64,000 nt of DNA from a virus, in the IMG/VR virus record IMGVR_UViG_3300042945_001689, positions 32,001 through 96,000 of that record; one strand, given 5' to 3'. The first letter of the stretch is position 1; each line of letters opens with the position of its first letter. The translations under genes were made by a program, and so were the position numbers. Shown here piece by piece: positions 11,434-54,910 of this stretch. The notes beneath the pieces were generated by a model. That model worked only from the letters and a program-made list of their open reading frames with translations, searched no databases and was not told the origin of the DNA.

Positions 11434-12165
11434 CTACTTGTATGTTCTTTGTTCCCAAATTTTATTTTTATATACTCCACCATTTGGTTTTCTGTATATT
11501 TTACTATTTGCAATATTTTTATAAACTATAACATTTGAATTAATTATATTGAATTCACTTTCCCAATTATCCCTTTTAAATGGAATCATTTGAACTATTG
11601 GAGTACCTTTTGGTAATATTCCAGAAAATTCTTTATTTATAAAAAATGGCATGCTTCCTGGCAACAAGACCTTATCATTATCTACAATTCCAGAAACTGT
11701 ATAAAAAGGCAACTCAAACCTATTTAAAGGATGTGTATACAATACGCTATAACCCTCTGGAACTTGAATTCCCCAATCTGCAAACCAAGCAAAATGATCA
11801 TCTCTATATCCATGTGGTGTAACAAAACCATCCATTTTGCTTCTTGGTGTACAAAAATCTTTATATTTTAAGTCTTCTATTTCAACACTTAATCCATTTT
11901 CACTTTGTATAAAATTAATATCACACGGTGTTAAATATGTGTATCCAGATCCCATTACGTCAAAAACTGCTGGACAGGCCTTCCAAGTTGGCATTTTGCC
12001 ACCATCTTGCCCAATATAAAAATCATTATTTTGTGGATTTTTAATAAATCTATCCATTTTTCGATACCACTCTGGAATAGTTTTAAGTATAGATGTTGGC
12101 TTAAATAGACTGTCTTGGTTTAACCATGGTCTATTATTAGTAAAAATTATTTTTTTAATGTCCAT
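11434..12165 (-). CDS. Conserved phage hypothetical protein, distantly similar to the DUF6065-like neighbour
   Basis: IPEWY..., KACPAVFD..GSGY, GIVDND, LPKGTPIVQMIPFKR. Confidence 0.6.
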   Translation of the reverse strand: MDIKKIIFTNNRPWLNQDSLFKPTSILKTIPEWYRKMDRFIKNPQNNDFYIGQDGGKMPTWKACPAVFDVMGSGYTYLTPCDINFIQSENGLSVEIEDLKYKDFCTPRSKMDGFVTPHGYRDDHFAWFADWGIQVPEGYSVLYTHPLNRFELPFYTVSGIVDNDKVLLPGSMPFFINKEFSGILPKGTPIVQMIPFKRDNWESEFNIINSNVIVYKNIANSKIYRKPNGGVYKNKIWEQRTYK

Positions 12166-12881
12166 TATTTTTTTCTTTTATCATTTGTTTTTAATCTAAT
12201 TGTTTTTAATTCATGCTTTCCTACAGGAATATCTGATTCGTCTGTAGCATTTCTGTAAAAGTGTGTCCACTCACCAACTCTATTTTTTAATTGAGACACC
12301 TCTCCATATTTTTTATTTTTAATTTCATCTTCTTTAGAAAAAACATAATCATTAATATCTAATTCATATTGGTTTATGTTTTGTAAAGATATTGGAACAA
12401 TAGCAGCAATAGGAGTTTTTGCTGGAATTGTTATAACAACATTTGGTTTTGTAACTTTGGCTGCTAGTGGCAATGGATATCTAAAAAAAGAAGTAGAAAT
12501 AAGTGTTGTGTATAAATGAATTCCATCAATAAATAGATTTGGAACTGGCATTGTTAACAAAGTTGTATTTTCATCAGTAATAAATTTAGTAAATGTATCA
12601 AAACTTAGCGTTGCACTTCTTCTATTTTCATTGACATATTTGTTACCAGATAGGATAGTTATATGACCATCCTCTTTATCTGTATCAATTCCGTCCCAAA
12701 TAAAACTAATATCTTCATCAAAACTAATTCCCCAACCTAATGTATTTGAAATTGATAACGGAAAACAATGATATGCGTGTGCATTTGACACATTGTCCAT
12801 CCAATCTCTTTTAGCAGAAATTTGAGAGATGTTTACACCAGAATTTGGCATCATGTATGCATTAAAAACTTTATTAGTCAT
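12165..12881 (-). CDS. DUF6065-like protein (copy 1)
   Basis: KRDWMD...HAYHCFPLSISNTLGW motif; paralog of 24106-24825; start taken at MTNKVF. Confidence 0.6.
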   Translation of the reverse strand: MTNKVFNAYMMPNSGVNISQISAKRDWMDNVSNAHAYHCFPLSISNTLGWGISFDEDISFIWDGIDTDKEDGHITILSGNKYVNENRRSATLSFDTFTKFITDENTTLLTMPVPNLFIDGIHLYTTLISTSFFRYPLPLAAKVTKPNVVITIPAKTPIAAIVPISLQNINQYELDINDYVFSKEDEIKNKKYGEVSQLKNRVGEWTHFYRNATDESDIPVGKHELKTIRLKTNDKRKK

Positions 12882-13554
12882 TTGTTTCTTCATGAAGGTC
12901 TGGCCTATGATATTTTGCGCTATAATCAAGCATTGTTACTAACGAATATTTTGTTCCAGATACCACTGGCATTGCTGTATGAGGATACATATAGTTTGAT
13001 GGAAAAATATATAAATCACCTGCCTGTGGTTTAACTTTTATTCCTTGTAGTCTAAAATCCAACTCTCCACCTTCGTAATCATCATTTAAATATCCTACTA
13101 AAGAAACTACACAGTTATATGTAGGACCTTGATCATGATGCTCTTGAAAATGTTGTCCTGGACCATATTTTATAAAATTAAATGATTCCCAGTATCTTAG
13201 TTCTCCAACACGAAAAAAATGAGAGTAGTCTTTAACTGCTGGAAGTTGTAAGTCATAACAGTCCTGCCAGACTTCTTGCAGCAAAACTGATTGAACGCTT
13301 TTATCATTCAGTAAATTTTCTTTTCTATATTTAAAATCAACACAGTCTCTATATTCTGGAATTTTTTGGGCATATCCAACTAAAGCCTCTCTCCAAAAAT
13401 AATTTGGATTTTTGCCTGTTAGACTATTTTCTAGTCTACTAATTATTTTCATGTCTTTTTTAAATACATTTCTATAAACTGCTATTCCATCTGCAAGTAA
13501 TTCTTTACTATCCCAAGTTGGATTTTCAACAACATTTGGTTCAAAATTAATCAT
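12874..13554 (-). CDS. 2OG-Fe(II) oxygenase, prolyl 4-hydroxylase-like
   Basis: HHD...YLNDDYEGGEL...FPSNYMYPH...GTKYS. Confidence 0.88.
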   Translation of the reverse strand: MINFEPNVVENPTWDSKELLADGIAVYRNVFKKDMKIISRLENSLTGKNPNYFWREALVGYAQKIPEYRDCVDFKYRKENLLNDKSVQSVLLQEVWQDCYDLQLPAVKDYSHFFRVGELRYWESFNFIKYGPGQHFQEHHDQGPTYNCVVSLVGYLNDDYEGGELDFRLQGIKVKPQAGDLYIFPSNYMYPHTAMPVVSGTKYSLVTMLDYSAKYHRPDLHEETND

Positions 13555-14285
13555 TGTTGCCTTTCTGTGTAAGTATACTTATGTCCCAATTCATTAATAT
13601 CTGTCATAATAACAATACAATATTTTGTTCCATTAACCATGTCCATTGACGCATGCTCATAAATATAATTAGATGGAAAAATTGCTATATCACCAAACTT
13701 TGGTTTATAAACTAAGTTGTCTAGCCTTGGAAAAAATAATTCTCCGCCTTCATAATCATCATTTAAATAAATTACAACAGAAACTGTTGTATTATATGCT
13801 GGACCGTGATCTGCATGAATTCTAAATTGCTGTCCTACACCTTCATACTTTACAAAATTAAATGCTTCATAATAGACCACATTAATTCCCCAATAACGAG
13901 CATAGTCATCAACACATAATTTTAAAGTATTGTAAATTTCTTCATACATATCAATTAATTCAGCATTTTGCTCATCTCTTGCTCCCAGAGAATAAGGATT
14001 ATACTTAAAATCAGAGCAGTTTCTAGCATACTTTATTGGTTGATCTGAGTTTGTAACTTTTGCTTCATTCCACTTATACCTTGTTTGTCCATTTAAATTA
14101 TTTTCTAATATACTTAAATATTTTTCACAATTTTCTTTTGAAATTGCATTATTATAGATATTTAAACCTAATCCTGGATTGCTTACTTTAATATTATTAA
14201 AAGTTTTGTCTGGCATTCTAAAAGATGCAGATTCTGACCTATCTTTTGTAAACCAAGGATTTTGTGATTCATTTACTTCAATCAT
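13551..14285 (-). CDS. 2OG-Fe(II) oxygenase, prolyl 4-hydroxylase-like
   Basis: HAD...YLNDDYEGGEL...FPSNYIYEH...GTKY. Confidence 0.88.
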   Translation of the reverse strand: MIEVNESQNPWFTKDRSESASFRMPDKTFNNIKVSNPGLGLNIYNNAISKENCEKYLSILENNLNGQTRYKWNEAKVTNSDQPIKYARNCSDFKYNPYSLGARDEQNAELIDMYEEIYNTLKLCVDDYARYWGINVVYYEAFNFVKYEGVGQQFRIHADHGPAYNTTVSVVIYLNDDYEGGELFFPRLDNLVYKPKFGDIAIFPSNYIYEHASMDMVNGTKYCIVIMTDINELGHKYTYTERQQ

Positions 14286-14343: not shown

Positions 14344-15648
14344 TTATTCAATACTTTGATCTCTTGTGTCATATACTAACATATTTTCTGTAAAGAAGTT
14401 GTCGTATGGTTCACAGTTAATCGAATATACTGTTTCTTCATAATTTAGAACGTCTAATGAATCAATATTGACAAACCCTAACTCTTCATATGAATATACC
14501 ATATATGTGTCATCAATTGAATCAATTCTTAAGAATTTTGAAACATTATCTTTTTTAGTTAAAATATAATGCGTTTCAGAATATGCATCGCCGTTAAGAA
14601 GATATACTTTATCTACTTGCTTTGATGATACTGCATAAACTGTAGTTTCTCTTAAATTGGTTTCATTTAGGATTAAGTCTTCTGCTGTCCAATTTAACCA
14701 ATCAGCGTTATGTGCTGAGGCTTGTTCTGGAAGTTCCATAGCAATTAAAACATCTCCTACAACTATGTCTTTGGCTTCTTTTCTGCCATTGGTAGTCATG
14801 ATGCCTGTATTGCTGGCAATGGAATACTCTGAGAATCCAAACCCTGGGAAAAATGGTCCGAATGGTGGTGGGAATGGTGGTGGGAATGGTGGTGGGAATG
14901 GTGGTGGGAATGGTGGTGGGAATGGTGGTGGTGCGAAACTTGGGAAGAACGGAAAGAACGGGAAGAATGGGAAAAATGGGAAGAATGGGAAGAATGGTGA
15001 AAGTGTAGTAACGCTAGAAGTTGTTGCTCCTAATGATGCTCCATTAGCATTTGTTGCAGTAACAGTGTAAGTCTGTGAAGTTCCTGCTGTATCAGCAATA
15101 GTTGATGATGTTGCTGATGATGCTAAATCTCCAGAAGAAGTTCCGTCAGAACCAGTAACGTTATGCTTAGATAAAGCCTTTCCACCAGTGGCACCAATTG
15201 TCCAACTGATTGTGTTTTGGTTAACACCAGCACTGGCGACCGCACCTTGAGGCGCTTGTGGAACTGTTGTTGCAGTTACTGAAGAAGAAGTTGTTCCGCT
15301 TGCAGTTCCTGCAGCGTTTGTTCCTTTTACTGTAAATGTGTATGAAGTATTTGATGCTAATCCCTGAAAAGTATAAGAAGGAGTGGAAGAGCCAGTATTT
15401 ACTTCGTAAGTTGAGGGGGTTGTTGTAATGATATAAGCAGTTGCTGCTGGAGATCCCGCTGGCAATGTCCAAGTAAGGCTTACTGCTCCACCTGTGCCTG
15501 CTGCAGATGCTGCTGAAGTAGTATTAGCAGTAGCAAGATAAGGACGAGATGTTCCTACATCTGTACCACTTAAGGAAGTAACATTATCTGGTTGCAAAAA
15601 GTTGTCTTGTGCTGAAGACTTGATACCTCTTTTTTTACTAACTGCCAT
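14344..15648 (-). CDS. FN3 domain(s) + (PFF)n(PPPF)n linker + C-terminal Hint-like domain protein (copy 1)
   Basis: FN3 signature (LTW...YTFQGL...YTFTVKGTNAAG); Pro/Phe repeats; Hint blocks SIASNT..TTNG.K...IVVGD, SETH, VYSINCE..NFFTENMLVYD. Confidence 0.8.
   Translation of the reverse strand: MAVSKKRGIKSSAQDNFLQPDNVTSLSGTDVGTSRPYLATANTTSAASAAGTGGAVSLTWTLPAGSPAATAYIITTTPSTYEVNTGSSTPSYTFQGLASNTSYTFTVKGTNAAGTASGTTSSSVTATTVPQAPQGAVASAGVNQNTISWTIGATGGKALSKHNVTGSDGTSSGDLASSATSSTIADTAGTSQTYTVTATNANGASLGATTSSVTTLSPFFPFFPFFPFFPFFPFFPSFAPPPFPPPFPPPFPPPFPPPFPPPFGPFFPGFGFSEYSIASNTGIMTTNGRKEAKDIVVGDVLIAMELPEQASAHNADWLNWTAEDLILNETNLRETTVYAVSSKQVDKVYLLNGDAYSETHYILTKKDNVSKFLRIDSIDDTYMVYSYEELGFVNIDSLDVLNYEETVYSINCEPYDNFFTENMLVYDTRDQSIE
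14852..14998 (-). repeat. Coding tandem repeats: 12 bp (CCACCACCATTC) x6 and 9 bp PFF-coding units x6-7
   Basis: Directly visible as GAATGGTGGTGG and GGGAAGAAY arrays on the plus strand. Confidence 0.95.
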
Positions 15649-15679: not shown

Positions 15680-17623
15680 TTATGCTTTTAAATCTCCCAT
15701 TACAACCCAAAGATTTGCTGCTCTCTTAAATAATGTTGCTGATGACCATTGTGCACGAAGTTTTAATCCAGGAGTTGCATTTACTGTTGTTGTTCCTGGT
15801 GTTACTGCTTCAATTGTCACTTCGCCAGTATTTGTTCGAAGAATATCAATTGATGTTCCGACTGGATAATTAAGTGTAGCATCTGTTGGGATTAAAACCT
15901 TAACTGCAGTTCCACCTGTATGTGAAACTTCAATTAATGAGTCTCTTTCATTTGCTGCTGAAAGGGTGTATTCTGCTGTCTTCTGAATAATTGATGTCCG
16001 TGATGGAACACCTTCTTTTGTTTGTGTACCGTCGGTAAAAATAAATCCACCAGCAGTTGTACTAATAACTGAAGTTCCGTTTACTTTAAGATCTTTTCCT
16101 GAAGCAAGGTTGATATGCTCGGAAGATGTCCAAGAATCTGTAGAATCTACCCAGTTAAAGGTTTTGTCTGTTGCGCCTTTAAGTGTAATACCTCCGCCAT
16201 CTGCAGTTGTATCAGTAGGAGTTCCTGTATCTCCAAGAACAATGTTTTTGTCTTCAATAACAAGGTTAGTTGAGTTAAGGTTTGTTGTAGTTCCATTAAT
16301 CGTTAAGTTTCCAGAAAGAGTTAAGTCTGTTCCAGAAACGGCTCCTGTAAATGTTGCTCCAGTAAGAGAAGCCTTAGCGTCTAACTGTGTTTGAATGGCT
16401 GAAGTTACCCCATCAACGTAGTTAAGTTCTGTAGTTGATGTGGTTACACCATCAAGAATGTTAAGTTCTGCTGCTGTAGAAGTAATAGAACTTCCAGCAA
16501 TCTGTAAAGTTGTGGCGTTTACTTCGCCTGCAGAGCCATAAATAACTGCTTTGCTATTTGCAATAGTTCCTGCTGATGATCCATCTACTAAGTTAAGTTC
16601 TGCTGCTGTAGAAGTAATAGAAGTGCCAGCAATTTGTAAAGTTGTAGCATTTACTTGGCCTGCTGGACCATAAATTACTGCCTTGCTATCTACAATTGTT
16701 CCAGCAATAGATCCATCTATTAAATTAACTTCTGATGCTGTTGCAGTGACATCTGTTGCACCTGCTGAAAGAACATGTGTATGACCTGTTCCTGCTTTTC
16801 CATCAATCTGTCCTTGAATTCCAGCAGAAACTCCTTCTAGGTACCCTATTTCTGTTGAAGATAGATCTCCAATTGATGTGGTACTTGGAAGAGTTACTGT
16901 TCCAGTAAATGTAGGACCTGCTAGTGCTGCTTTAGCATCTAACTGAGTTTGAATTGCTGAGGTTACACCATTAAGATAACTAATTTCAGTATTTGATACA
17001 TCTGCAACAACTGCTTGCTTATTGTCTAATTGTGTTTGAATTGCTGAAGTAACACCAGCAAGATATCCTAATTCTGTTGATGTTGCACCAGTTGCACTAA
17101 GGTTTCCTGTTGTAACAACAGTTCCGCTTACGTTTGGAAATGTAATAGTTCTATCGGCTGTAGGATCTGTTACTGTTAAAGTGGTTTCATAATCGTTTGC
17201 TGTAGTACCTTCAAAAACAATTCCTGTTGTAGCATTAATTGTTGTGCTGTTAATAGTAGTGGTTGTACCACTTACTGTTAAATCTCCTGAAACGGTAACG
17301 TTTCCACTACCATCGGACAAAACAACTGTGCCTGTTGCATCTGGAAATGTAATTGTACGGTCTGCTGTAGGATCTGTTACGGCAAGAGTTGTTTCAAATG
17401 CGTTGTCTGTAGCACCTTCAAATGTAATGCTTGAACCAAATGATGGGTTTACTGTAGAGGATTGGTCAATAAAGTAGTCAATATTTGCCCAGTGGTTAGT
17501 GCCATCACCGATCTTAAACTTATTAGTGTCTGATTCCCATCCGATTTCACCAGCATTTAGTATTGGGTTTGCTGATGTCCATTGTGCTGCAGTACCTCTG
17601 CGTTGCTGCATTCTTGTTGCCAT
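15680..17623 (-). CDS. Tail/head fibre-like protein
   Basis: N-terminal QQRRGTAAQW..NPIL..GEIG.E.DT.KFKIGDG (Mtd_N-like); internal GVTSAIQTQLD repeats; T/G/A-rich. Confidence 0.75.
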   Translation of the reverse strand: MATRMQQRRGTAAQWTSANPILNAGEIGWESDTNKFKIGDGTNHWANIDYFIDQSSTVNPSFGSSITFEGATDNAFETTLAVTDPTADRTITFPDATGTVVLSDGSGNVTVSGDLTVSGTTTTINSTTINATTGIVFEGTTANDYETTLTVTDPTADRTITFPNVSGTVVTTGNLSATGATSTELGYLAGVTSAIQTQLDNKQAVVADVSNTEISYLNGVTSAIQTQLDAKAALAGPTFTGTVTLPSTTSIGDLSSTEIGYLEGVSAGIQGQIDGKAGTGHTHVLSAGATDVTATASEVNLIDGSIAGTIVDSKAVIYGPAGQVNATTLQIAGTSITSTAAELNLVDGSSAGTIANSKAVIYGSAGEVNATTLQIAGSSITSTAAELNILDGVTTSTTELNYVDGVTSAIQTQLDAKASLTGATFTGAVSGTDLTLSGNLTINGTTTNLNSTNLVIEDKNIVLGDTGTPTDTTADGGGITLKGATDKTFNWVDSTDSWTSSEHINLASGKDLKVNGTSVISTTAGGFIFTDGTQTKEGVPSRTSIIQKTAEYTLSAANERDSLIEVSHTGGTAVKVLIPTDATLNYPVGTSIDILRTNTGEVTIEAVTPGTTTVNATPGLKLRAQWSSATLFKRAANLWVVMGDLKA

Positions 17624-22833: not shown

Positions 22834-23424
22834 TTAATTTTTATTAACATATTTATTTCTAATTTCATTTTCAAATATTCTGTATTTAGTTGGAATCCAA
22901 AAAGATGGTGTGGTATATCTTGTGCCTTTTGTTATCTCCCGCACACCGTGTATATACATTGTGTTTGATGGGAAAAATACCAATGTACCAGCACTAGGTT
23001 TAAAGTCTAAGTTATGATCTGGGAAGTATATCTCTCCGCCTTCGTAGTCATCGTTCAAATATATAACAGCCCCATAGTCAACTATAAATGCTTCATTTGG
23101 ATGTCCTTCTGGATCTTCTCCATCTGCATGTAGTGGTTGAAACTCTCCTGCGTCCCATCTTCTTATTCCAGCAGAATTTGTTTCAAGAGGTCTTCCAAAA
23201 TAAAGTTCTATCTCTTGCTGTACTCTATCAATTGCTTTTTTTAGTATGGCATGGGCCTCTGGCTTTTCAGAAGCAAGATTTCTTGTTACTTTGTCTGGTA
23301 TTCCAGCCATTGAATTAGAACCCCAAGAAATTGTATCGTCTATTGATGATAATACAATGTCTAAATCTTTCTTTGAAACAAAATTTTCTTTTATAACAAT
23401 ATTTTTTGTAGATCCTATTTTCAT
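22834..23424 (-). CDS. 2OG-Fe(II) oxygenase, prolyl 4-hydroxylase-like
   Basis: HAD...YLNDDYEGGEI...HGV...GTRY. Confidence 0.88.
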   Translation of the reverse strand: MKIGSTKNIVIKENFVSKKDLDIVLSSIDDTISWGSNSMAGIPDKVTRNLASEKPEAHAILKKAIDRVQQEIELYFGRPLETNSAGIRRWDAGEFQPLHADGEDPEGHPNEAFIVDYGAVIYLNDDYEGGEIYFPDHNLDFKPSAGTLVFFPSNTMYIHGVREITKGTRYTTPSFWIPTKYRIFENEIRNKYVNKN

Positions 23425-23433
23425 TTTTTCTCC

Positions 23434-23592
23434 TTAATTAGGTAACTCTGATTGCTCTGCTATTTCTTTTACTTTGTCAAAGTTTGATGCATCAACCATT
23501 GAAGATAAAACATAACATATCCATTGATAAGATGACTTTTCGCAATACCCCTTTGACTGCATAATTTTAGCAATATCTTCTATAATTTCCAT
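23434..23592 (-). CDS. Small hypothetical protein (52 aa)
   Basis: MEIIEDIAKIM...; start overlaps upstream stop (TAATG) and fills the gap between two oxygenases. Confidence 0.55.
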   Translation of the reverse strand: MEIIEDIAKIMQSKGYCEKSSYQWICYVLSSMVDASNFDKVKEIAEQSELPN

Positions 23593-24113
23593 TACTTATA
23601 CTCCAAAAATATGTTAATTGCATATCTTGTTCCAGAATGAACCTGATGCGCTATGTGCATATATGGGTAGTTTGATGGAAATAATACCATAGAATTTTTT
23701 ACTGGCTTAACTTTAATGTCAAAGTTGCAAAATTCTATCTCTCCGCCTTCGTAGTCATCGTTTAAATATATAACGCAACTAGTAACTCTGTTAGAAACAT
23801 GCTTTGAGCCATCATCATAGTGCATTACATACTTTTCTCCAGGCTCGTATTTTAATGCCTCTATTGTAAGATATGTTAGTTCTGGAAGAAAATATAAATC
23901 ACGATATGCACTTAAAGAACTATGCAGCGCCTCATCTATAATTTTAAAAATTTCTTTTTGCAACTCTTTGTCTTGAAAGTATATGACTGAATTAGATCTA
24001 TCTTCTGTTTTTACATTTAGTGGTTTTGTCCACTCATACTTATTAATTTCTTTAATTAATAAATCTGAATTATTCAAAACATTATAATAAAACTCTATTC
24101 CGTTTTTATTCAT
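23592..24113 (-). CDS. 2OG-Fe(II) oxygenase, prolyl 4-hydroxylase-like
   Basis: HYD...YLNDDYEGGEI...FPSNYPYMH...GTRY. Confidence 0.88.
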   Translation of the reverse strand: MNKNGIEFYYNVLNNSDLLIKEINKYEWTKPLNVKTEDRSNSVIYFQDKELQKEIFKIIDEALHSSLSAYRDLYFLPELTYLTIEALKYEPGEKYVMHYDDGSKHVSNRVTSCVIYLNDDYEGGEIEFCNFDIKVKPVKNSMVLFPSNYPYMHIAHQVHSGTRYAINIFLEYK

Positions 24114-24825
24114 TTTTTTTCCTTATGTCTTTGGTATGCAACTTTATTTTTTTTACTTCGTGTGATCCAACAGAATTGCCAAATTGATCAGTAGCGCTTC
24201 GATAAAAATCAGAAAACTTTGGAATTTTATTATTTTCTAATATTACATTTCCATAGTCTGTTACTTTTTTATGGTATTCATTAATATTATGTGGATTATT
24301 ATTTAAAGTAATTGTAGAATTTTGTAAATTTGTTAAAGATATTGGCAAAACAGAAATAATTGGAGAGTTTGCTTTAAACGTAATAACAGTGTTTGGCCTT
24401 GTAATTTTCCAAGATACTGGTATAGGTTTTTGCCAAAAACTAGAACTAATTAAGTTTGTTAACGGAACTGCGCCATCAATGTCTAAATTTGGTGGACCAA
24501 AAAACAATAAACTAGTTTCTGGATTTGTTTCAAAAAACCAACCTATATTAAAAATTAGTGTTGCAGTTCCTCTGTTAGTGTCAACAAATTCTTTACCTTT
24601 TAAAACCGTTATGTGATTTCCTTCAGAAGAGTCGTTTCCATCCCAAACAACAGAAATATCTTTGGGGAATGAAAATCCCCATCCCATTTGATTTGTTAAC
24701 GATAAAGGAAAACACCTGTATGCATGTTGATCAAATGTTTTATCCATCCAGTCTCTTTTTAAAGAAAGTTGTTCTATTCTTGCACCTAAACCTGGATTTA
24801 CTTCATATGCATTGATTTCATACAT
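24106..24825 (-). CDS. DUF6065-like protein (copy 2)
   Basis: KRDWMD...HAYRCFPLSLTNQMGW; paralog of 12165-12881. Confidence 0.6.
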   Translation of the reverse strand: MYEINAYEVNPGLGARIEQLSLKRDWMDKTFDQHAYRCFPLSLTNQMGWGFSFPKDISVVWDGNDSSEGNHITVLKGKEFVDTNRGTATLIFNIGWFFETNPETSLLFFGPPNLDIDGAVPLTNLISSSFWQKPIPVSWKITRPNTVITFKANSPIISVLPISLTNLQNSTITLNNNPHNINEYHKKVTDYGNVILENNKIPKFSDFYRSATDQFGNSVGSHEVKKIKLHTKDIRKKNE

Positions 24826-25488
24826 TTATTGTTTTTGCCTTAGTGGAGAGTTTGCTCCGTGTACCCTATCATTATAGTCAAACATTGTTACTGCAGAATA
24901 TTTTATTCCTTCTTTTACAGGCAAAGCAGCATGAGAATATAAAAAGTTTGATGGGAACAAAACAATATCTCCCTCTTCTGGAGTATAAGTATAGTTTATG
25001 TATGGGAAAAACAATTCTCCTCCAGTATAGTTGTCATTTAAATACATAACTGTAGAAACAGTACATACATAACTAAAACCATGATCTGAATGAACCTGAA
25101 AGTGTTGATCTTTTCCATATCTAACAAAATTAACTGCTTCTTGATACTCTAAGTTTAAATTAAAAAGTGAAGAATAATGTTTTACACATTCCTGTAGTCG
25201 TTCATCTATGTCAAAGTATATTTTTCTTAAATCTGACATAGTTGCTCTTGGGTTATTTACAAAATCATTTTTTCTTACTTTAAAGTCTACGCAATCTCTA
25301 TAATCTTTTCTTGTTTCATAATCACCAACTTGTGCTTCGCTCCATTTGAAAAAATTATCGCCATGTTTTTCAATAACATCTTCAAGTCGCTGAACAAGAT
25401 TTAAGTCTTTATTAAGCGCATTTTTATAAACGAATACAGCAGGCGCAGGATTTTCTATAGTGGTTGTTTCTATAAAGTTAGATAACAT
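24826..25488 (-). CDS. 2OG-Fe(II) oxygenase, prolyl 4-hydroxylase-like
   Basis: HSD...YLNDNYTGGEL...YSH...GIKYS; YRDCVDFK shared with 12874-13554. Confidence 0.88.
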   Translation of the reverse strand: MLSNFIETTTIENPAPAVFVYKNALNKDLNLVQRLEDVIEKHGDNFFKWSEAQVGDYETRKDYRDCVDFKVRKNDFVNNPRATMSDLRKIYFDIDERLQECVKHYSSLFNLNLEYQEAVNFVRYGKDQHFQVHSDHGFSYVCTVSTVMYLNDNYTGGELFFPYINYTYTPEEGDIVLFPSNFLYSHAALPVKEGIKYSAVTMFDYNDRVHGANSPLRQKQ

Positions 25489-25527
25489 TTAATCTCCTTT
25501 TTGGTCAATATATAGTATACTACATAT

Positions 25528-26112
25528 ATGGACAATATGTATAAGGTACAACCTGGCTATTTTGGGGACTCTGTTGATAATATCATTGTTTTAGAAAATT
25601 TTATAAGTCCAGATGACTTAGATAAATTTTACTTTTACTCTAAATCAATAGAAAATTTTTTATCCATACCTGATGACAACTGGGACAACAGGGTTCATAG
25701 TTCAGAGTTATTTAAAAATAGTAATAAGGCATTATTTCTTAAACTTTTAGAATATCAAAAAAAATTAAAAATAGAAATAGAAAAAAGATTTAACTTTGTT
25801 TTACAAGAAAATTCACCATCAATAGTTCTTTGGAGACCTGGAGACGATCAGCCTCCTCATGCAGACAAACAGGAGCAAGATGGTAATCCAAATTCTTATC
25901 CTGAAAATGATGTGGCATCCCTAATGTATATAAACGACAATTATGATGGTGGAGAAATATACTTTACTAACCAGGATATAACCATAAAGCCCAAGGCTGG
26001 TTCTGCAATATTTTTTCCTGGAGATATACATTATACTCATGGGGTAACAAAAGTATTAAATAACAACAGATATACATCGCCAGCATTTTGGCGTGTAAAA
26101 AACTTTAATTAA
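25528..26112 (+). CDS. 2OG-Fe(II) oxygenase, prolyl 4-hydroxylase-like
   Basis: HAD...YINDNYDGGEI...HGV...RYTSP. Confidence 0.88.
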   Translation: MDNMYKVQPGYFGDSVDNIIVLENFISPDDLDKFYFYSKSIENFLSIPDDNWDNRVHSSELFKNSNKALFLKLLEYQKKLKIEIEKRFNFVLQENSPSIVLWRPGDDQPPHADKQEQDGNPNSYPENDVASLMYINDNYDGGEIYFTNQDITIKPKAGSAIFFPGDIHYTHGVTKVLNNNRYTSPAFWRVKNFN

Positions 26113-27014
26113 ATATTATCCCTAACATCAAAAACCAACATATTTTCTGTAAAGAAATTATCATATGGTTCGCAATTGATTGAATAAACCGTATCTTCAT
26201 ATTCTATAATATCGAACACTTCTATTGGAACAAACTGTAGATCAGCAAAAGAGTATACAAAATATGAACTATCAATTTCTGATGTTTGTATAAATTTAAC
26301 AACATTATCTTTTTTAGTTAAAATATAATGCGTTCCCGAATATGCATCTCCGTTAATTATATAAAGTGTACCGATAGGTCTTGAGGTAATAGAAACAACC
26401 TCTGTTTCTCTTAAATTGGTTTCATCTAATAATAAATCTTCTTTACTCCAAGTTGTCCAATCAGAAACATTGTTGGTATCTAAATCCATAGCAACCAAAA
26501 CGTCTCCTACTACAATATCTTTAGCGTCTTTTCTTCCATTAATAGTTATAATTCCAGTATTGCTTGCAATGGAATATTCTGAATAGACTCCAAACCCTGG
26601 GAAAAATGGTGGTATTGGGAACGGTGGTGGGAACGGTGGTGGGGCAACGGCGAACGGTGGTGGGAACGGTGGTGGGAACGGTGGTGGGAACGGTGGTGGT
26701 GCTGGGGCTACTGGAGTAACAGAATTACTTGCTGCAGATTCTAACGATGTAGCAACACCATTTCCTAGTTTTACTTTAAATGTATAGGCTGTTCCATTTG
26801 ACAAACCACTAACAGTTATTGGAGAAGTTGAAGATGTTCCTGTTATATCTGATGGAGTTGAAGTTGCAGTGTAAGTTGTTCCAATTGGTTTGCCTAAATA
26901 GGCTGGTGCTGTAAATGAAACTGTTGCTGTTTCATTACCTTCTGTTGCAGTTCCAATTGTTGGAGTTCCTGGTTGTATTCCTCCACTACCTGAAGATATT
27001 GGTGGTAATGGCAT
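26109..27014 (-). CDS. FN3 + (PPPF)n + C-terminal Hint-like domain protein (copy 2)
   Basis: Start MPLPP at 27014 overlaps upstream stop; FN3 (ITVSGLSNGTAYTFKV); PPPF repeats; Hint domain highly similar to copy 1. Confidence 0.8.
   Translation of the reverse strand: MPLPPISSGSGGIQPGTPTIGTATEGNETATVSFTAPAYLGKPIGTTYTATSTPSDITGTSSTSPITVSGLSNGTAYTFKVKLGNGVATSLESAASNSVTPVAPAPPPFPPPFPPPFPPPFAVAPPPFPPPFPIPPFFPGFGVYSEYSIASNTGIITINGRKDAKDIVVGDVLVAMDLDTNNVSDWTTWSKEDLLLDETNLRETEVVSITSRPIGTLYIINGDAYSGTHYILTKKDNVVKFIQTSEIDSSYFVYSFADLQFVPIEVFDIIEYEDTVYSINCEPYDNFFTENMLVFDVRDNI
26595..26700 (-). repeat. Coding tandem repeat (CCACCACCGTTC) x6, interrupted once
   Basis: GAACGGTGGTGG array on the plus strand. 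Confidence 0.93.
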
Positions 27015-27814
27015 TATGCACTCAGATCGCCAATTGCAATCCAAGTATTGGTTGCTCGTTTAATTAATGTACAAGATGAATACTGTGTTCTTAATTTTGC
27101 TGCATTTGAAGAAACTTGAGGTGTGCAATTTAGTGTAACTCCTGCAGTGACTACTACTGTTGTTGCTCCAGTTCCAGTTTGAATAATTGTAATTTGTGAA
27201 CCAATTGCAAATGCTTGAGTTGCATTAAGTGGAATAGTAACTGTATTTGCAGTTGATGTTAAATTCATTTCAATAATTTTATATGCATCTGACAAAACCA
27301 ATGCGTGATTTGCTGTTTTTTCTAAAATAGTAAAATCTAATGCAGATTTAGTATCTTGAACTGCTTTGACTGCAGTTGGTGTTGCTGCTTTAACTGATGA
27401 AGTCTCTGATGTTGAATCTGACAATTGAACAACTCCAGGTGTTGAAACTGATGCTGCTGTAGGTGCAGCCCATTTAAGACCAAATGTGCCCTGTGTTGAG
27501 TCTGCAGTTAAAATATGTCCATCGCTACCAACTGTTAAATTATCTAAATTATTATTTGATGTCCCTACTAAAAGATCGCCTTTAGCGTCAATGACAGTTT
27601 CTTCTACAGCATTTGTTAAAGTTGCATCAATTGCATCAATTCTTGTATCTATATCATCTAGATACTTTGAAATACCTGCGGTTGCTGTGCCTTCTGGCTC
27701 TGCTTCTTGTCCCCAATGATAATATTTAAGTGCAACCTGTATGTCGGCTGGATCAGCCATTGCTGGAATTTTTGCTAGGGGATACTTAGAACTTCCTATA
27801 TTTGTGGCTGCCAT
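27014..27814 (-). CDS. Fibre-like structural protein
   Basis: DAKGDLLVG block shared with 18143; GVVQLSDST..AATP.AVK fibre repeat; C-terminal domain shared with 15680-17623. Confidence 0.7.
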   Translation of the reverse strand: MAATNIGSSKYPLAKIPAMADPADIQVALKYYHWGQEAEPEGTATAGISKYLDDIDTRIDAIDATLTNAVEETVIDAKGDLLVGTSNNNLDNLTVGSDGHILTADSTQGTFGLKWAAPTAASVSTPGVVQLSDSTSETSSVKAATPTAVKAVQDTKSALDFTILEKTANHALVLSDAYKIIEMNLTSTANTVTIPLNATQAFAIGSQITIIQTGTGATTVVVTAGVTLNCTPQVSSNAAKLRTQYSSCTLIKRATNTWIAIGDLSA

Positions 27815-46111: not shown

Positions 46112-46145
46112 GGTGTTTACTGTTCTATTTACCGCCGAACTTTAA
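46112..46145. repeat. 34 bp direct repeat (second copy 47251-47284) flanking pstS
   Basis: GGTGTTTnnTGTTCTATTTACCGCCGAACTTTAA, last 25 bp identical. Confidence 0.9.
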
Positions 46146-47185
46146 GACTTAGATCCAATTAGTGCAATTTGCGCTTTTGCTATAGTTAGCGCCGAGCCTG
46201 TAAGTGGAGAGTATTCCAATTTTTTGGCTGAAAGAGTAGCGCATGAAGTGGCAGTATACTTAAAGAATCCTTTGATTATATTTGCCTTATCGCTTGCTTG
46301 TGTTGGTGCTAGGCCATAAGAGAACGAGGATATGTTGTAAGCCTTCTTATCCTTGTTGTTATAGTTTGGAACAATGATGCCATTTCCTTCAGGCTCAAAA
46401 TCACTTAGGAATGCAGAGGCTGCTTCAGATGTAGGTTGCATAAACACACCAGCACCATTTTCAATAAATGCCTTAGCAAGATTTTGATTTGTAGCATAAG
46501 AAGATTCCATATATCCTATTGCGCCATTTGTACGTGCAACCTGAGATGCCATAAGATTAGTTCCAGCAACAGAACTAAAAGTTCCTAAAGGTAATTGAGT
46601 TTTTGGAAATGCTTGTGTAAAAGACTTGTTTGGAGCCTTTGTCCAGATTGATGGAGCAATAGCACTAAGATATTCTGTTACTACTTGAGTTGTTCCAGAA
46701 CTATCTGCACGATAGAAAACCATTATTTGTAGGTTTGGTAGTTTTGGTTTTACTTTCTTTATAGTATTATCTTTAACTATTTGAGGATCATTCCACTTTG
46801 TTATATCCCCTGCAAAAATTTTAGCCAATGTTTTTTTCTTTAATTGAATCTTGCCTTTGTACCCATCAATTCTATATGCAATTGCAATAGGGCCTGCTAC
46901 TAATGGAACATACACAAAATCTTTTTCTTTATTAATTTGTGAAGCAGCAACATCACTTGCTGCAAAATCAACAGTGCCTAGCATAAACATATTAATTCCA
47001 GCACCTGATCCTAGTGCTGTGTATTCTATGCTATGTCCAGAGGCTTTTCCATATTGAACACGGCATTCATCAATAAAGTTAGCAATGAATGATGAACCAG
47101 AACCCGTAAGTTGATCTGCATGGGCTGGTTGGGCGATGAGTAAAGATGCAGCGATTGCTGCTACGATAAATCTAGAAGATTTCAT
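46142..47185 (-). CDS. pstS: Phosphate ABC transporter substrate-binding protein
   Basis: Signal peptide; GSGSSF, GSGAG, DFAASD, IFAGDITKWNDPQI, RADSSGTT, GAIGY.E motifs. Confidence 0.93.
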   Translation of the reverse strand: MKSSRFIVAAIAASLLIAQPAHADQLTGSGSSFIANFIDECRVQYGKASGHSIEYTALGSGAGINMFMLGTVDFAASDVAASQINKEKDFVYVPLVAGPIAIAYRIDGYKGKIQLKKKTLAKIFAGDITKWNDPQIVKDNTIKKVKPKLPNLQIMVFYRADSSGTTQVVTEYLSAIAPSIWTKAPNKSFTQAFPKTQLPLGTFSSVAGTNLMASQVARTNGAIGYMESSYATNQNLAKAFIENGAGVFMQPTSEAASAFLSDFEPEGNGIIVPNYNNKDKKAYNISSFSYGLAPTQASDKANIIKGFFKYTATSCATLSAKKLEYSPLTGSALTIAKAQIALIGSKS

Positions 47186-52353: not shown

Positions 52354-53310
52354 ATGGCAAACATAGTCTTTTTAGGCAATTTTGAAGTACCATATAGTAG
52401 CGAAAATCATCACGCTAACTCTTTAGAATCTTTAGGTCATACTGTTTGTAGATTGCAAGAAAGAACAATTAAGGATAGTTTTGTTCTTGAACAAGCAATG
52501 AACAGTGATCTCTTTATATGGGTGCATACACATGGCTGGAACACTCCAGGAAGAATCGGTATGGGCTACGTGCTAGAAGAGTTAAAGAAGGCCAACATCC
52601 CCACAATGACATATCATTTAGACCTATGGCTTGGTTTAGAAAGACAGAAAGACTTAGAAGAGGATGACTTCTATAAAACAATTGGACACTTCTTTGCAAC
52701 AGATAAATTAATGACTGATTGGTTTAATGAGAACACTAATGTAAAAGGACACTTCCTTCCTGCTGGAGTATATGATAAAGAGTGCTACATTCATCCAGAC
52801 TATGATGTTCAAGACTTTGATTACGATGTGATATTTGTTGGTAGTAAAAGATATCACCATGAATATCCATACAGACCGCAACTAATAGATCACTTAAGAA
52901 ATGTTTATGGTAAAAGATTTTTACATGTAGGTGGAGATGGTGATACTGGAACTGTCCGTGGAGATAAGTTAAATAGAATTTATGCTAAAAGTAAGATAGC
53001 AATTGGAGATAGTTTAAATATAGGATTTAACTATCCTTACTATACAAGCGATAGATTGTTTGAAAGTACTGGTCGTGGTGGATTTACTATCTACCCTCGT
53101 ATTAAAGGTCTTGAAGAATATTTTGAAGATGAAAGTGAAATTGTTTTTTATGAACATGGAAACTTAAAAGATTTAACAGATAAGATAGATGAATATCTTG
53201 AAGACAACCTTAGCAGGGAAGATATAAGATTAAATGGTCATGAAAGAACTAAGCAAGAGCATACATATATACATAGATGGGCAACTATACTAAAGGAGTT
53301 AAACATATGA
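52354..53310 (+). CDS. Glycosyltransferase (GT-B, CgeB/Glyco_trans_1_2-like)
   Basis: DVIFVGS, SDRLFE..G.G, HTYIHR. Confidence 0.8.
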   Translation: MANIVFLGNFEVPYSSENHHANSLESLGHTVCRLQERTIKDSFVLEQAMNSDLFIWVHTHGWNTPGRIGMGYVLEELKKANIPTMTYHLDLWLGLERQKDLEEDDFYKTIGHFFATDKLMTDWFNENTNVKGHFLPAGVYDKECYIHPDYDVQDFDYDVIFVGSKRYHHEYPYRPQLIDHLRNVYGKRFLHVGGDGDTGTVRGDKLNRIYAKSKIAIGDSLNIGFNYPYYTSDRLFESTGRGGFTIYPRIKGLEEYFEDESEIVFYEHGNLKDLTDKIDEYLEDNLSREDIRLNGHERTKQEHTYIHRWATILKELNI

Positions 53311-54059
53311 ACTTTATAGAAAGATCTGATATCGTATGGAAAACAGTTCCATATATTCGTCAAGGTGAAACCAGAAACTATGATTACAATCTTGAATTAA
53401 ACGAGCCATTGGCAAGTTGGGATGTTTGGGATTATTGGGAAAAAGAAAGAATACATAGCATGAAGACTCACCTTAAGAAAGGTGATGTATTTTTTGATAT
53501 TGGCACAGAATCTGGATGGTGTAATTTAGTTTATGCTGATATAGTTGGACCAGAAAACATGGTGCTTATTGAACCAACACCAGAGTTTTGGCCAAACATT
53601 CATGCTCTTTGGTATAAAAATTATTCAGTAGATCCGTTAGGAATGTATGCTGGATTAATTAGCGACAACACAACTGATACTCGCAAAGGTAGTGATCTTA
53701 ATGCGTGGGGAGAAGATTATCTTGGTGCAATTATTGATCGCAATAAGTATGTCTATATTCATGACAATTCTGCAAACATACCTATGATTAAATTAGATGA
53801 CTATGTTTCTGAAGTTGGCATTGTTCCAGATGTTTTAAATATTGATGTAGAAGGTGCAGAACTTCTTGTATTTAAAGGTGCAGAAAACACGTTAAGAAAT
53901 AATAATTTAAAAATATTTGTATCAATTCATGATGATTTAGGTCTGCGTGATTACAATACATCACCTGAAGATACTATATCTTATCTAGAATCTCTTGGAT
54001 ATGTTGGAGAATTTCTAGCAAAAAATCATGAAGCACATTGGTATTTTGAAAAGAAATAA
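53307..54059 (+). CDS. FkbM-family methyltransferase
   Basis: VFFDIG, IEP, KLDD, NIDVEGAELLV..G. Confidence 0.85.
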   Translation: MNFIERSDIVWKTVPYIRQGETRNYDYNLELNEPLASWDVWDYWEKERIHSMKTHLKKGDVFFDIGTESGWCNLVYADIVGPENMVLIEPTPEFWPNIHALWYKNYSVDPLGMYAGLISDNTTDTRKGSDLNAWGEDYLGAIIDRNKYVYIHDNSANIPMIKLDDYVSEVGIVPDVLNIDVEGAELLVFKGAENTLRNNNLKIFVSIHDDLGLRDYNTSPEDTISYLESLGYVGEFLAKNHEAHWYFEKK

Positions 54060-54061
54060 AA

Positions 54062-54910
54062 ATGTTAACTGCCTATATTTATTCTAAAGATCCACTTGAT
54101 TCTGCTAATGATAAATGGGATTACGGTCTATTAAAGCAAACATTTGAAAGAAATAAAATAAAAGAAGTTGTTGTTGATACATTGCCACAAGAAGAAAGAG
54201 CCTTTGTTGTTATTCCTGGACAAGGTAATGCTGGTAAAGAAGATAGTATAAATGATGAATTAAAAAATATAGGCAGAGTAGTTTTATTTATAACTGGAGA
54301 TGAAGGAAATTTATTTGATATTGATAAAATAACGCATGGAAATATATCTATTTGGGTTCAATGCCCGACAAGAAAACACCAAAAATATAATAAACTTCCT
54401 ATAGGTGCACCACATCATATTAAAGACAACATCCCCGAATATACAGAAAAAACACATACTGCATGCTTTGCTGGGCAAATTACACATAAGAGAAGACAGC
54501 AATTAGCAGACATAATGCCAAGTATTAAAGATTCTATTTATAAACCTACTGATGGCTTTGCCAAAGGCGATGAACCAAAAGAATATTATAAAAATTTGTT
54601 TAGTGCTAAAATTGCTCCCGCTCCTGCAGGCGCTGTAAGTATGGATTCATTTAGATTTTTTGAAGCAATTGAAATGCTTTGTCTGCCTATTGCAGACTTA
54701 AGAAACTCTAAAGGGCATAAAGATAATTTTTATCATTATATTTTTGATGAAACATTGCCATTTCCATCAACTAGTAATTGGTCAGAATTGCCAGAGATTA
54801 TTAAATCAATATTAAAGGATTATCCAAACAATATGCATCATGTAGTTTCTTGGTGGATTAAATATAAAAGAGATTTTGCAATTAAACTTATGAAGGAGAT
54901 ATATGCATAA
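54062..54910 (+). CDS. Exostosin/GT47-like glycosyltransferase
   Basis: FAGQ...RR, Y...L..AK....P.G....SFRFFEA....C.PI. Confidence 0.65.
   Translation: MLTAYIYSKDPLDSANDKWDYGLLKQTFERNKIKEVVVDTLPQEERAFVVIPGQGNAGKEDSINDELKNIGRVVLFITGDEGNLFDIDKITHGNISIWVQCPTRKHQKYNKLPIGAPHHIKDNIPEYTEKTHTACFAGQITHKRRQQLADIMPSIKDSIYKPTDGFAKGDEPKEYYKNLFSAKIAPAPAGAVSMDSFRFFEAIEMLCLPIADLRNSKGHKDNFYHYIFDETLPFPSTSNWSELPEIIKSILKDYPNNMHHVVSWWIKYKRDFAIKLMKEIYA

What the first reader, a model, noticed from the sequence alone, without database searches (positions are those of the whole stretch)
14344..14823. Atypical Hint domain: Ser nucleophile and no terminal His-Asn (second copy 26109-26573)
Seen: both copies begin EY|SIASNT, have S-x-T-H at block B, VYSINCE at block F, and end NFFTENMLV(Y/F)D instead of ...LVHN, followed by only 5-7 residues. 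Known: inteins need the terminal Asn for splicing and C-terminal cleavage, whereas Hedgehog-type Hints perform only N-terminal acyl shift and transfer to a nucleophile. Inference: this domain cannot splice but may activate the conserved PFFPGFGxxSEY end as an ester for hydrolysis, cyclisation or ligation to another molecule. The two Hint coding regions share long identical DNA stretches (e.g. 14542-14575 vs 26301-26334), suggesting recent duplication or gene conversion.
Basis: partly seen in the sequence, partly recalled or inferred. Interest (0 to 1): 0.7.

Follow-up and report, generated by a model that had tools for sequence, protein, structure and literature searches.

The report
Self-cleaving Hint cap on phage fibre proteins
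Two fibre-associated proteins of an uncultured freshwater phage end in a real but non-canonical Hedgehog/intein (Hint) domain, which most likely cuts itself off; it belongs to a large, undescribed phage family of such C-terminal modules.

Summary
Both ORFs (14344-15648 and 26109-27014, minus strand) end in a 152-residue domain with a confident Hint fold: AF2 pLDDT 87, VIA Z 18.4 to Tetrahymena BIL2, 16.5 to a Clostridium BIL, 16.4 to Hedgehog. The Ser after ...SEY superposes on intein residue 1, and the Asp of ...LV(Y/F)D on the intein's terminal Asn.

The domain belongs to a family of at least 501 representative proteins. It sits almost always at the extreme C-terminus, with a 3-9 residue tail, behind FN3, PASTA, TIG, LCCL or collagen-like modules. 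No Pfam or NCBIfam model reaches its cut-off.

Family-wide, position 1 is Ser or Cys (120/126) and the block-B His is kept (120/126). The C-terminal end grades from Cys...HN through Ser...HD|Ser to the Ser...FD clade found here.

Orthologous proteins at the same position after the fibre gene lack the Hint and stop just after the Pro/Phe repeats. The mature product therefore probably ends there.

Best reading: a BIL/Hedgehog-like autoprocessing module doing N-terminal cleavage, not splicing. How the ester is resolved (water or another nucleophile) is open.

The "recent duplication or gene conversion" inference is not supported. This is a new variant of a known kind. Other first readers of this scan noted the same stretch.

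The parts
14344..15648 (-). Copy 1 gene, 434 aa. It has a conserved basic N-terminal peptide, 2 x FN3, Pro/Phe repeats, a Hint domain and a 7-aa tail.
   Evidence: Translation; Pfam fn3 34.4 bits; 33 homologues.
14368..14823 (-). Copy 1 Hint domain, Ser276 to Asp427 (152 aa).
   Evidence: AF2 pLDDT 87. Foldseek top hits are BIL2 6y75, Ssp DnaB and BIL 2lwy. VIA Z is 18.4/16.5/16.4, with model residues 12..163 matching intein residues 1..last.
14821..14823 (-). Ser276, the predicted N-terminal nucleophile. The scissile bond is Tyr275|Ser276.
   Evidence: Invariant in A1 and A2. Ser 95 / Cys 25 of 126 family-wide. Superposes on Cys1 of inteins and Cys258 of Hedgehog.
14569..14580 (-). Block B S357-E-T-H360, equivalent to the intein TxxH motif.
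   Evidence: His in 120/126 and Ser/Thr in 121/126 family-wide; coordinates.
14368..14430 (-). Blocks F/G, VYSINCEPYDNFFTENMLVYD, ending in Tyr426-Asp427 in place of His-Asn.
   Evidence: Nearly invariant in 28 and 23 sequences. Asp427 aligns with the terminal Asn of 2imz and 1dq3.
14347..14367 (-). 7-residue C-terminal tail TRDQSIE (pattern x-[RKP]-D in relatives).
14860..14997 (-). Tandem DNA repeats encoding (PPPF)6 and (PFF)6. The 12-nt unit is repeated 6 times at 100% identity; the 9-nt unit is repeated 6.3 times.
   Evidence: TRF. A near-identical relative, L003, has one PPPF unit fewer.
26109..27014 (-). Copy 2 gene, 301 aa from the ATG at 27014: 1 x FN3, PPPF repeats, a Hint domain and a 5-aa tail.
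   Evidence: Orthologues P0007 and P0008 start with MPLPP.
26127..26573 (-). Copy 2 Hint domain, Ser148 to Asp296, with His229 at 26328-26330.
   Evidence: 64% identical to copy 1; coordinates.
26616..26699 (-). 12-nt tandem repeat encoding the PPPF units of copy 2.
   Evidence: TRF.
15680..17623 (-). Upstream fibre gene of copy 1 (Mtd_N domain; tail-fibre PHROGs).
   Evidence: A fibre gene precedes the Hint gene in nearly all of the 32 related viral loci; in a few the upstream flank is too short to show it.
27014..27814 (-). Upstream fibre gene of copy 2. Its stop overlaps the start of copy 2 as TAATG.
11434..14285 (-). Downstream context of copy 1: two 2OG-Fe(II) oxygenases (13551-14285, 12874-13554), a DUF6065 protein (12165-12929) and a phrog_7084 protein (11434-12165).
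   Evidence: A phrog_7084 homologue lies downstream of the Hint gene in most of the related loci, directly behind it in many.
22834..26112 (.). Downstream context of copy 2: four 2OG-Fe(II) oxygenases (three on the minus strand; 25528-26112 on the plus strand) and a DUF6065 protein (24106-24825).

Best explanation
Each protein is made as a precursor whose last ~160 residues form a Hint-fold autoprocessing module of the bacterial-intein-like/Hedgehog kind. Ser276 (Ser148 in copy 2), assisted by the block-B Ser-x-x-His, attacks the Tyr-Ser peptide bond in an N-to-O acyl shift. The resulting ester is then resolved, most simply by water. This releases the mature fibre-associated protein (N-terminal peptide, FN3 domains, Pro/Phe repeats) with a new C-terminus ...SEY, and discards the Hint plus its tail. 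The module does not splice, because the penultimate His and a conserved +1 nucleophile are missing. The retained terminal Asp lies in the active site; it may serve as the general base for resolving the ester. Shown: the fold, the equivalence of Ser and Asp to intein residues 1 and last, the family-wide conservation of the nucleophile and block-B His, the strictly C-terminal position, and the existence of Hint-less orthologues that end at the same point. Inferred: that cleavage happens, and how the ester is resolved.
For: Fold and residue equivalence. Model Ser12 matches residue 1 of 2imz, 1dq3, 2cw8, 5o9i and 6owu, and Cys258 of 1at0; model Asp163 matches their last residue. Conservation across 126 full-length family domains: position 1 is Ser 95 / Cys 25, block-B His is 120, block-B Ser/Thr is 121, and the terminal residue is Asp 84 / Asn 20. 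Position: the domain is almost always at the extreme C-terminus, with a modal tail of 4-5 residues, behind unrelated adhesion-type modules: FN3, PASTA x4, TIG, LCCL and collagen-like. Hint-less orthologues of 225-255 aa share the N-terminal peptide, 2 x FN3 and F/P repeats. They stop just after the repeats and sit at the same position after the fibre gene. In a tree of the N-terminal parts, some Hint-bearing forms nest among Hint-less ones. The +1 residue is not conserved in the Ser...FD clade. The N-terminal cleavage chemistry of BIL and Hedgehog Hint domains is established (PMC7765530, PMC7664689).
Against: There is no experimental evidence of cleavage for any family member, and no virion peptide data were found. 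Sequence matches to all curated Hint models are below their cut-offs. Block-F position 4 is Ser, not the usual Asp, and the block-F His is replaced by Asp (EPYD). The catalytic set is therefore untested, and an oxyester is less reactive than a thioester. The very strong conservation of CEPYDNFFTENMLVFD exceeds what simple self-cleavage needs, so an additional function is possible. Hint-less orthologues are also compatible with the Hint being an optional functional tip rather than a discarded one.
Confidence: 0.6

Rival explanations
1. The first step (N-to-O acyl shift) is the same, but the ester is resolved by a nucleophile other than water. Candidates are a Lys or N-terminal amine of a virion partner such as the upstream fibre, a cell-wall amine, or a lipid. 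The ...SEY carboxyl would then become covalently attached (Hedgehog- or BUBL-like transfer).
For: Hedgehog Hint transfers its N-terminal domain to cholesterol. Tetrahymena BIL2, the top structural match, forms Lys isopeptide bonds without ATP (PMC8616854, section 2.4). An invariant Asp and the extra conserved EPYDNFFTENM surface lie beyond the minimal catalytic set. Orthologues replace the Hint with Cys-rich, basic or aromatic caps, which would suit an attachment end. The fibre gene is always immediately upstream and is translationally coupled in copy 2. One family member carries four PASTA (muropeptide-binding) domains.
Against: No acceptor has been identified. There is no adduct-recognition region after the Hint, only 5-7 residues. 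An oxyester is a poor acyl donor for amines compared with a thioester. Structural similarity to BIL2 shows shared fold only.
Confidence: 0.15
2. The domain is catalytically inert in this clade. It stays attached as a folded C-terminal knob with a binding, structural or folding-nucleus role.
For: His-Asn, the block-F His and the block-F Asp are all replaced. The C-terminal 20 residues are invariant, as expected for a binding surface. C-terminal domains of fibre proteins are often the functional tips.
Against: The nucleophile, the block-B Ser/Thr and the block-B His are kept in 95% or more of a family that diverges to about 25% identity. That is hard to explain without catalysis. The domain is much more conserved than the N-terminal parts, the opposite of a receptor-binding tip. 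Hint-less orthologues function without it.
Confidence: 0.15
3. It is a true (mini-)intein that splices the short tail onto the N-extein, using Asp cyclisation and the +1 Thr in copy 1.
For: Inteins with a terminal Asp, Gln or Glu can splice (PMC4031507). Copy 1 has Thr at +1. The sister clade Ser...His-Asp|Ser has all four canonical positions, and some members have 35-97 residue C-exteins.
Against: Copy 2 has Val at +1. The +1 residue varies (T, S, V, A, R, Y, M, K, G) within the Ser...FD clade. The penultimate His is lost. A 5-7 residue C-extein and placement in a hypervariable protein are unlike intein insertion sites. No homing endonuclease is present.
Confidence: 0.07

Closest known systems
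Bacterial intein-like (BIL) domains, A- and B-type (Amitai et al. 2003; Dassa et al. 2004, as summarised in PMC7765530 and PMC7664689)
   Same: Both have the Hint fold; solved BILs are the best structural matches (6tmm Z 18.4, 2lwy Z 16.5). Both occur in hypervariable, non-conserved surface or structural proteins, lack a +1 nucleophile and are expected to give cleavage rather than splicing. B-type BILs also keep the N-terminal motifs but lack the C-terminal intein motif.
   Different: This domain has Ser rather than Cys at position 1 and F/Y-Asp rather than His-Asn. It sits at the extreme C-terminus with a 5-7 residue tail and is phage-encoded. Pfam Hint_2 and Intein_splicing score below their cut-offs.
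Hedgehog C-terminal autoprocessing (Hog/Hint) domain
   Same: Both lie C-terminal to the functional part. Only the first acyl-shift step is expected, followed by release of the N-terminal part. Both need an active-site Asp. The fold matches at Z 16.4 (1at0).
   Different: Hedgehog uses Cys and has a sterol-recognition region after the Hint that recruits cholesterol. Here there is Ser and only a 5-7 residue tail. Pfam Hint PF01079 is not reached.
Class 1 mini-inteins (e.g. Ssp/Npu DnaB, gp41-1)
   Same: Blocks A, B, F and G align without gaps (by eye; Pfam Intein_splicing positions 77-153). Some inteins use Ser1 and some end in Asp or Gln (PMC4031507).
   Different: There is no conserved +1 nucleophile, no penultimate His and no real C-extein. 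The domain is not inserted in a conserved site of an essential enzyme.
Bacterial proteins with a divergent C-terminal Hint-like domain (subgroup noted by Burglin 2008, PMC2362128, and by Dassa and Pietrokovski)
   Same: [quoted passage not shown]
   Different: The present family is essentially viral: 1 hit in 185,579 prokaryote genomes, on a contig binned into a lake MAG.
C-terminal intramolecular chaperone / self-cleaving domain of phage tailspikes and fibres (Peptidase S74) - functional analogue only
   Same: Both are C-terminal modules on phage fibre-type proteins, removed by autoproteolysis N-terminal to a conserved Ser (from established knowledge).
   Different: The fold and chemistry are unrelated. 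No Pfam or fold match to S74 was seen.

Membership tests
Hint (Hedgehog/intein) superfamily | Horseshoe-like all-beta Hint fold with the N- and C-terminal residues meeting at the active site | tested here: met
   AF2 pLDDT 87.3. In the Foldseek search 58 PDB chains score E<=1e-3, and all those listed are Hint domains. In the VIA search 29 chains score Z>=8, all Hint domains, with a top Z of 18.4, rmsd 1.9 A and 140 aligned residues.
Hint (Hedgehog/intein) superfamily | Nucleophile (Cys/Ser) at position 1 and block-B T/S-x-x-H | tested here: met
   Ser276 and S357-x-x-H360 are invariant in A1 and A2. Family-wide, position 1 is S/C in 120/126 and block-B His in 120/126.
Intein (class 1) | Terminal Asn (or Asp/Gln/Glu) preceded by His (block G) | tested here: not met
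   The terminal residue is Asp, which is allowed. The penultimate residue is Tyr or Phe, not His.
Intein (class 1) | Cys/Ser/Thr at +1 of a functional C-extein | tested here: not met
   The +1 residue is Thr in copy 1 and Val in copy 2, and varies in relatives. The C-extein is only 5-7 residues.
Intein (class 1) | Pfam Intein_splicing (PF14890) gathering score | tested here: not met
   Scores of 26.4 and 19.6 bits against a cut-off of 35.8.
Class 3 intein | No nucleophile at position 1; Trp-Cys-Thr motif (block B Trp, block F:4 Cys, block G:5 Thr) | tested here: not met
   Position 1 is Ser, F:4 is Ser, G:5 is Val, and there is no block-B Trp (read from the alignment; the motif definition comes from PMC7664689).
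Hedgehog Hog domain | Cys nucleophile and a sterol-recognition region C-terminal to the Hint | tested here: not met
   The nucleophile is Ser276 and only 7 or 5 residues follow the Hint. Pfam Hint PF01079 matches 1 of 23 members at E 0.036.
BIL A-type | Cys1 and conserved C-terminal His-Asn without a +1 nucleophile | tested here: not met
   The window copies have Ser...Y/F-Asp. Distant family members fit this pattern, including the jumbo-phage proteins P0184 and P0185 (Cys...LVHN|V).
BIL B-type | Intein N-terminal motifs present and C-terminal motif absent; Pfam Hint_2 (PF13403), taken here as the nearest curated model | tested here: inconclusive
   The motif pattern fits. Hint_2 matches 8 of 23 members with a best E of 0.009, below its 28.4-bit cut-off. 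No B-type reference sequences were available for a direct profile comparison.
Peptidase S74 (tailspike intramolecular chaperone) | S74 sequence family or fold | tested here: inconclusive
   No Pfam hit was found and the fold is clearly Hint. This is considered only as a functional analogue.

The most novel reading that the evidence does not exclude
The Hint is an enzyme-free ligation device. The ester formed at Tyr275|Ser276 would be attacked by a specific amine or hydroxyl, such as a Lys of the co-translated upstream fibre, a peptidoglycan stem-peptide amine on the host, or a lipid head group. The Pro/Phe-repeat end of the protein would then become covalently anchored. This would be the first Hedgehog/BUBL-type protein-transfer reaction in a phage virion. 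The Cys-rich, basic and aromatic caps of Hint-less orthologues would be alternative anchoring solutions.
Probability: 0.13. Interest if true: 0.85.

Novelty: new variant of a known kind. Interest (0 to 1): 0.55.

Why it matters
Hint domains are known from inteins, Hedgehog, BILs and polymorphic toxins. A large, almost exclusively viral clade of strictly C-terminal Hint modules on fibre-associated and virion proteins has not been described in the searched literature and is missed by Pfam and NCBIfam cut-offs. It shows a graded series of active sites, from Cys...His-Asn to Ser...His-Asp|Ser to Ser...Phe-Asp. That makes it a natural experiment on how intein-like chemistry is re-tuned from splicing to cleavage or transfer. 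If cleavage is confirmed, it adds a second, unrelated solution to the self-removing C-terminal module of phage fibres, alongside the S74 chaperone. It also offers compact Ser-based self-cleaving tags. If the ester is transferred instead, it would be a new kind of virion protein ligation.

Tried and rejected
(1) Recent duplication or gene conversion was rejected. DNA identity is 73%, and the same 30-nt string recurs in orthologues from other contigs.

(2) A homotrimer of the Hint domain was tested, on the idea of a self-removing trimerisation propeptide. Complex prediction gave no verdict (score 0.00), which is no evidence either way.

(3) PDB sequence searches gave nothing for the single sequence, and only block-A matches at E 0.06 with the profile.

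(4) blastn of the locus against cultured phages found no match. tblastn of the domain found only 4 jumbo-phage records.

(5) NCBIfam has no model for these proteins.

(6) The literature was searched for Hint/intein-like with tail fibre, virion, collagen and Erwinia. No description of this module was found. The hits concern terminase or RNR inteins.

(7) A class 3 intein mechanism was considered and rejected, because Ser1 is present and there is no WCT motif.

The context of Hint-less orthologues was obtained through the search for related loci instead.

(9) The fold of the conserved downstream neighbour 11434-12165 gives only a moderate dUTPase-like beta-barrel match (Z 8-9.5; Foldseek TMq 0.31) and no functional clue.

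(10) The Dassa et al. 2004 JBC paper could not be read.

(11) Active-site geometry in the model could not be inspected, because coordinates are not exposed.
Full report
WHAT IS THERE

The window is part of a 108-kb IMG/VR virus record estimated 99% complete, with about 35% GC. Its portal is 47% identical to those of Streptomyces siphophages such as Annadreamy. The only hit among 185,579 prokaryote genomes is a contig binned into a lake MAG (sample label ME2015). I infer that the phage is an uncultured freshwater, possibly actinobacterial, phage.

The two ORFs named in the finding lie in a tail-fibre region (PHROGs).
- Copy 1 (14344-15648, minus strand, 434 aa) has a conserved basic N-terminal peptide, two FN3 domains, (PFF)6 and (PPPF)6 repeats, the junction ...PFFPGFGFSEY|SIASNTG, a 152-residue domain and the tail TRDQSIE.
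- Copy 2 (301 aa from the ATG at 27014) has one FN3 domain, PPPF repeats, the same junction and domain, and the tail VRDNI.

IS IT A HINT DOMAIN?

Sequence evidence alone is weak but consistent.
- Pfam Intein_splicing scores E 7e-6 and 26 bits against a cut-off of 35.8.
- 14 of 23 relatives touch Intein_splicing and 8 of 23 touch Hint_2, all below threshold.
- NCBIfam has nothing.

Structure settles the question. An AF2 model built on 28 homologues has pLDDT 87.
- Foldseek finds 58 PDB chains at E<=1e-3, and all those listed are Hint domains. The list is led by BIL2 of the Tetrahymena BUBL1 locus, the Ssp DnaB mini-intein and the Clostridium thermocellum BIL.
- An independent all-against-all VIA search gives Z 18.4 (6tmm), 16.5 (2lwy), 16.4 (Hedgehog 1at0) and 16.3 (Npu DnaB). 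There are 29 chains at Z>=8, all Hint domains.

The aligned ranges are informative. Model residue 12 (Ser276) pairs with residue 1 of the RecA, PI-PfuI, TFIIB and Prp8 inteins and with Cys258 of Hedgehog. Model residue 163 (Asp427) pairs with their last residue. So the Ser is the position-1 nucleophile, and the final Asp sits where inteins have the cyclising Asn.

THE FAMILY

A profile of 23 domain-only sequences (A2) finds 501 representative proteins at E<=1e-3 among 1.84 billion, 128 of them at E<=1e-10.

In 126 hits covering the whole domain:
- position 1 is Ser 95 / Cys 25;
- the block-B residues are Ser/Thr 121 and His 120;
- the penultimate residue is His 57, Phe 43 or Tyr 14;
- the terminal residue is Asp 84 or Asn 20.

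The combinations are Ser...FD (42), Ser...HD (33, mostly followed by Ser), Ser...YD/YN (14) and Cys...HN (20 or more).

The domain is almost always the last thing in the protein, with a modal tail of 4-5 residues. It follows unrelated adhesion-type modules: FN3, four PASTA domains, TIG and LCCL. In the only cultured members it follows collagen-like repeats. These are the 'virion structural proteins' of Erwinia phage pEa_SNUABM_2 and Yersinia phage fHe-Yen9-02, which have Cys1 and LVHN|V.

A midpoint-rooted tree places the Cys...HN forms basally. A Ser clade (n=96) splits into Ser...HD and Ser...[F/Y]D/N, with the Ser...FD clade of the window (n=47, support 0.97) nested inside. The rooting is an assumption. 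Even so, the polarity from canonical to derived is what comparison with inteins suggests.

WHAT IT PROBABLY DOES

Three observations point to N-terminal autoprocessing.

(i) The residues needed for the first step, the nucleophile and block-B S/T-x-x-H, are kept across a family that diverges to about 25% identity. The residues needed for later splicing steps are lost or variable in this clade: the penultimate His, the block-F His (here Asp in EPYD) and a +1 nucleophile.

(ii) The module is strictly C-terminal, as in Hedgehog.

(iii) Orthologous proteins with the same N-terminal peptide, FN3 pair and F/P repeats exist without any Hint. They are 225-255 aa long, many of them on contigs of tens of kilobases (up to about 120 kb), and they stop a few residues after the repeats.
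- In 20 or more viral loci they occupy the same position after the fibre gene.
- Their ends vary. Some are plain (e.g. ...FGVFGFR), some Cys-rich (e.g. ...CPECTKGCPC, ...NWYGCAGWC), and some a basic helix. In L040, L043 and L044 there is instead a different, Cys...SHN|K Hint.
- In a tree of the N-terminal parts, some Hint-bearing proteins nest among Hint-less ones.

The simplest reading is that the functional product ends right after the repeats and that the Hint is a removable cap. I put this at about 0.6.

The invariant terminal Asp is unexplained by simple cleavage. I infer that it acts on the ester, as a general base for water or for another nucleophile, by analogy with the active-site Asp of Hedgehog. 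This rests on established knowledge and was not tested.

RIVALS

- Transfer of the activated C-terminus to another nucleophile cannot be excluded (0.15). Hedgehog and the BUBL BIL2 are precedents (PMC8616854). The over-conserved CEPYDNFFTENMLVFD surface, the coupled upstream fibre gene and the 'anchoring-like' caps of orthologues are suggestive, but no acceptor is known.
- An inert structural knob (0.15) fits the loss of several canonical residues but not the retention of the nucleophile and His.
- True splicing of the 5-7 residue tail (0.07) is chemically possible in copy 1 (Asp|Thr; PMC4031507). It is not conserved, since copy 2 has Asp|Val.
- A trimerisation-propeptide idea was tested with a three-copy complex prediction, which gave no verdict.

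THE DNA-IDENTITY CLAIM

The 34-nt identical run exists, but the two Hint coding regions are only 73% identical overall. Both paralogues are present side by side on another contig (L003 and L008). The same string encoding THYILTKKD appears in orthologues from other contigs. It reflects a conserved catalytic motif plus AT-rich codon usage, not a recent event.

By contrast, the repeat regions are evolving fast. The PPPF array is a perfect 12-nt x 6 tandem repeat, and a near-identical relative has one unit fewer.

CONTEXT

In nearly all of the 32 related loci a fibre gene precedes the FN3/repeat/Hint gene; in a few the upstream flank is too short to show it. A homologue of 11434-12165 (phrog_7084) lies downstream in most of them, directly behind the Hint gene in many. 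Closer relatives also carry two to six 2OG-Fe(II) oxygenases (PF13640, the prolyl-hydroxylase-type family) and DUF6065 proteins. The synteny supports an association, but the chemistry is untested. The phrog_7084 protein models as a dUTPase-like beta barrel at moderate Z.

COMPARISON AND NOVELTY

The domain works most like a BIL or Hedgehog Hint. It fails the defining tests of class 1 and class 3 inteins, of Hog domains and of A-type BILs. It resembles B-type BILs in motif pattern but could not be placed there; the Hint_2 match is below threshold.

Bacterial C-terminal Hint-like proteins have been noted as a separate subgroup (PMC2362128). Automatic labels show that Hint-like domains are common in phage proteins. 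I found no paper describing this C-terminal module of phage fibre-associated proteins.

I rate it a new variant of a known kind, with interest about 0.55. The most novel reading not excluded is covalent anchoring by ester transfer, at about 0.13.

Noticed in passing
window 11434-14285 and 22834-26112: There is a battery of six 2OG-Fe(II) oxygenase genes (PF13640, prolyl-hydroxylase type), two DUF6065 genes and a phrog_7084 gene directly downstream of the two Pro-rich Hint proteins. The synteny is conserved in many related viral loci. The Pro/Phe repeats are obvious candidate substrates, but nothing was tested.
   Followed up: partly
window 11434-12165 (-): This phrog_7084 protein has a homologue downstream of the Hint gene in most related loci, directly behind it in many. 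The AF2 model (pLDDT 79) gives only a moderate dUTPase-like beta-barrel match (VIA Z 8-9.5). A language-model search places it next to DUF6065 clusters.
   Followed up: partly
L037-L058 (viral loci), e.g. L041, L047, L056-L058, L049, L054: Orthologues of the FN3/repeat protein end in short Cys-rich caps (e.g. ...NWYGCAGWC, ...FFCPECTKGCPC, ...CICQGSIWAC) or in a basic amphipathic tail instead of a Hint. The C-terminal end after the repeats is therefore a swappable cap.
   Followed up: partly
P0094, P0096, P0103, P0107 (family members): In the sister clade Ser...His-Asp|Ser, some members carry 35-97 residue C-exteins with a shared helix-like motif (...ITEP.QS...LE.LYQ.W...). All four canonical splicing positions are present, so they are candidates for genuine splicing with a terminal Asp.
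   Followed up: no
L035:2996-4438 and L036:3011-4453 (Yersinia phage fHe-Yen9-02 333c; Erwinia phage pEa_SNUABM_2 gp110): These cultured jumbo-phage 'virion structural proteins' combine collagen-like Gly-X-Y repeats with a C-terminal Cys...LVHN|V Hint of the same family. They are the most tractable experimental handle.
   Followed up: partly
window 14860-14931: A perfect 12-nt x 6 tandem repeat (100% identity) encodes (PPPF)6. A near-identical relative (L003) has five units, which suggests slippage-driven length variation.
   Followed up: yes
window 27012-27016: The stop of the fibre gene 27014-27814 overlaps the ATG of Hint-protein copy 2 (TAATG), which implies translational coupling. The TTG at 27044 listed by the ORF finder is probably not the start.
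   Followed up: yes
P0100 and P0128 (family members): Two long proteins (1108 and 1840 aa) each carry two matched stretches of the profile, apparently two Hint-like domains one after the other, rather than a single terminal one.
   Followed up: no
window 46142-47185 (-), 52354-56704 (+): There is a PstS-like phosphate-binding auxiliary gene and a run of glycosyltransferase-like genes elsewhere in the window.
   Followed up: no
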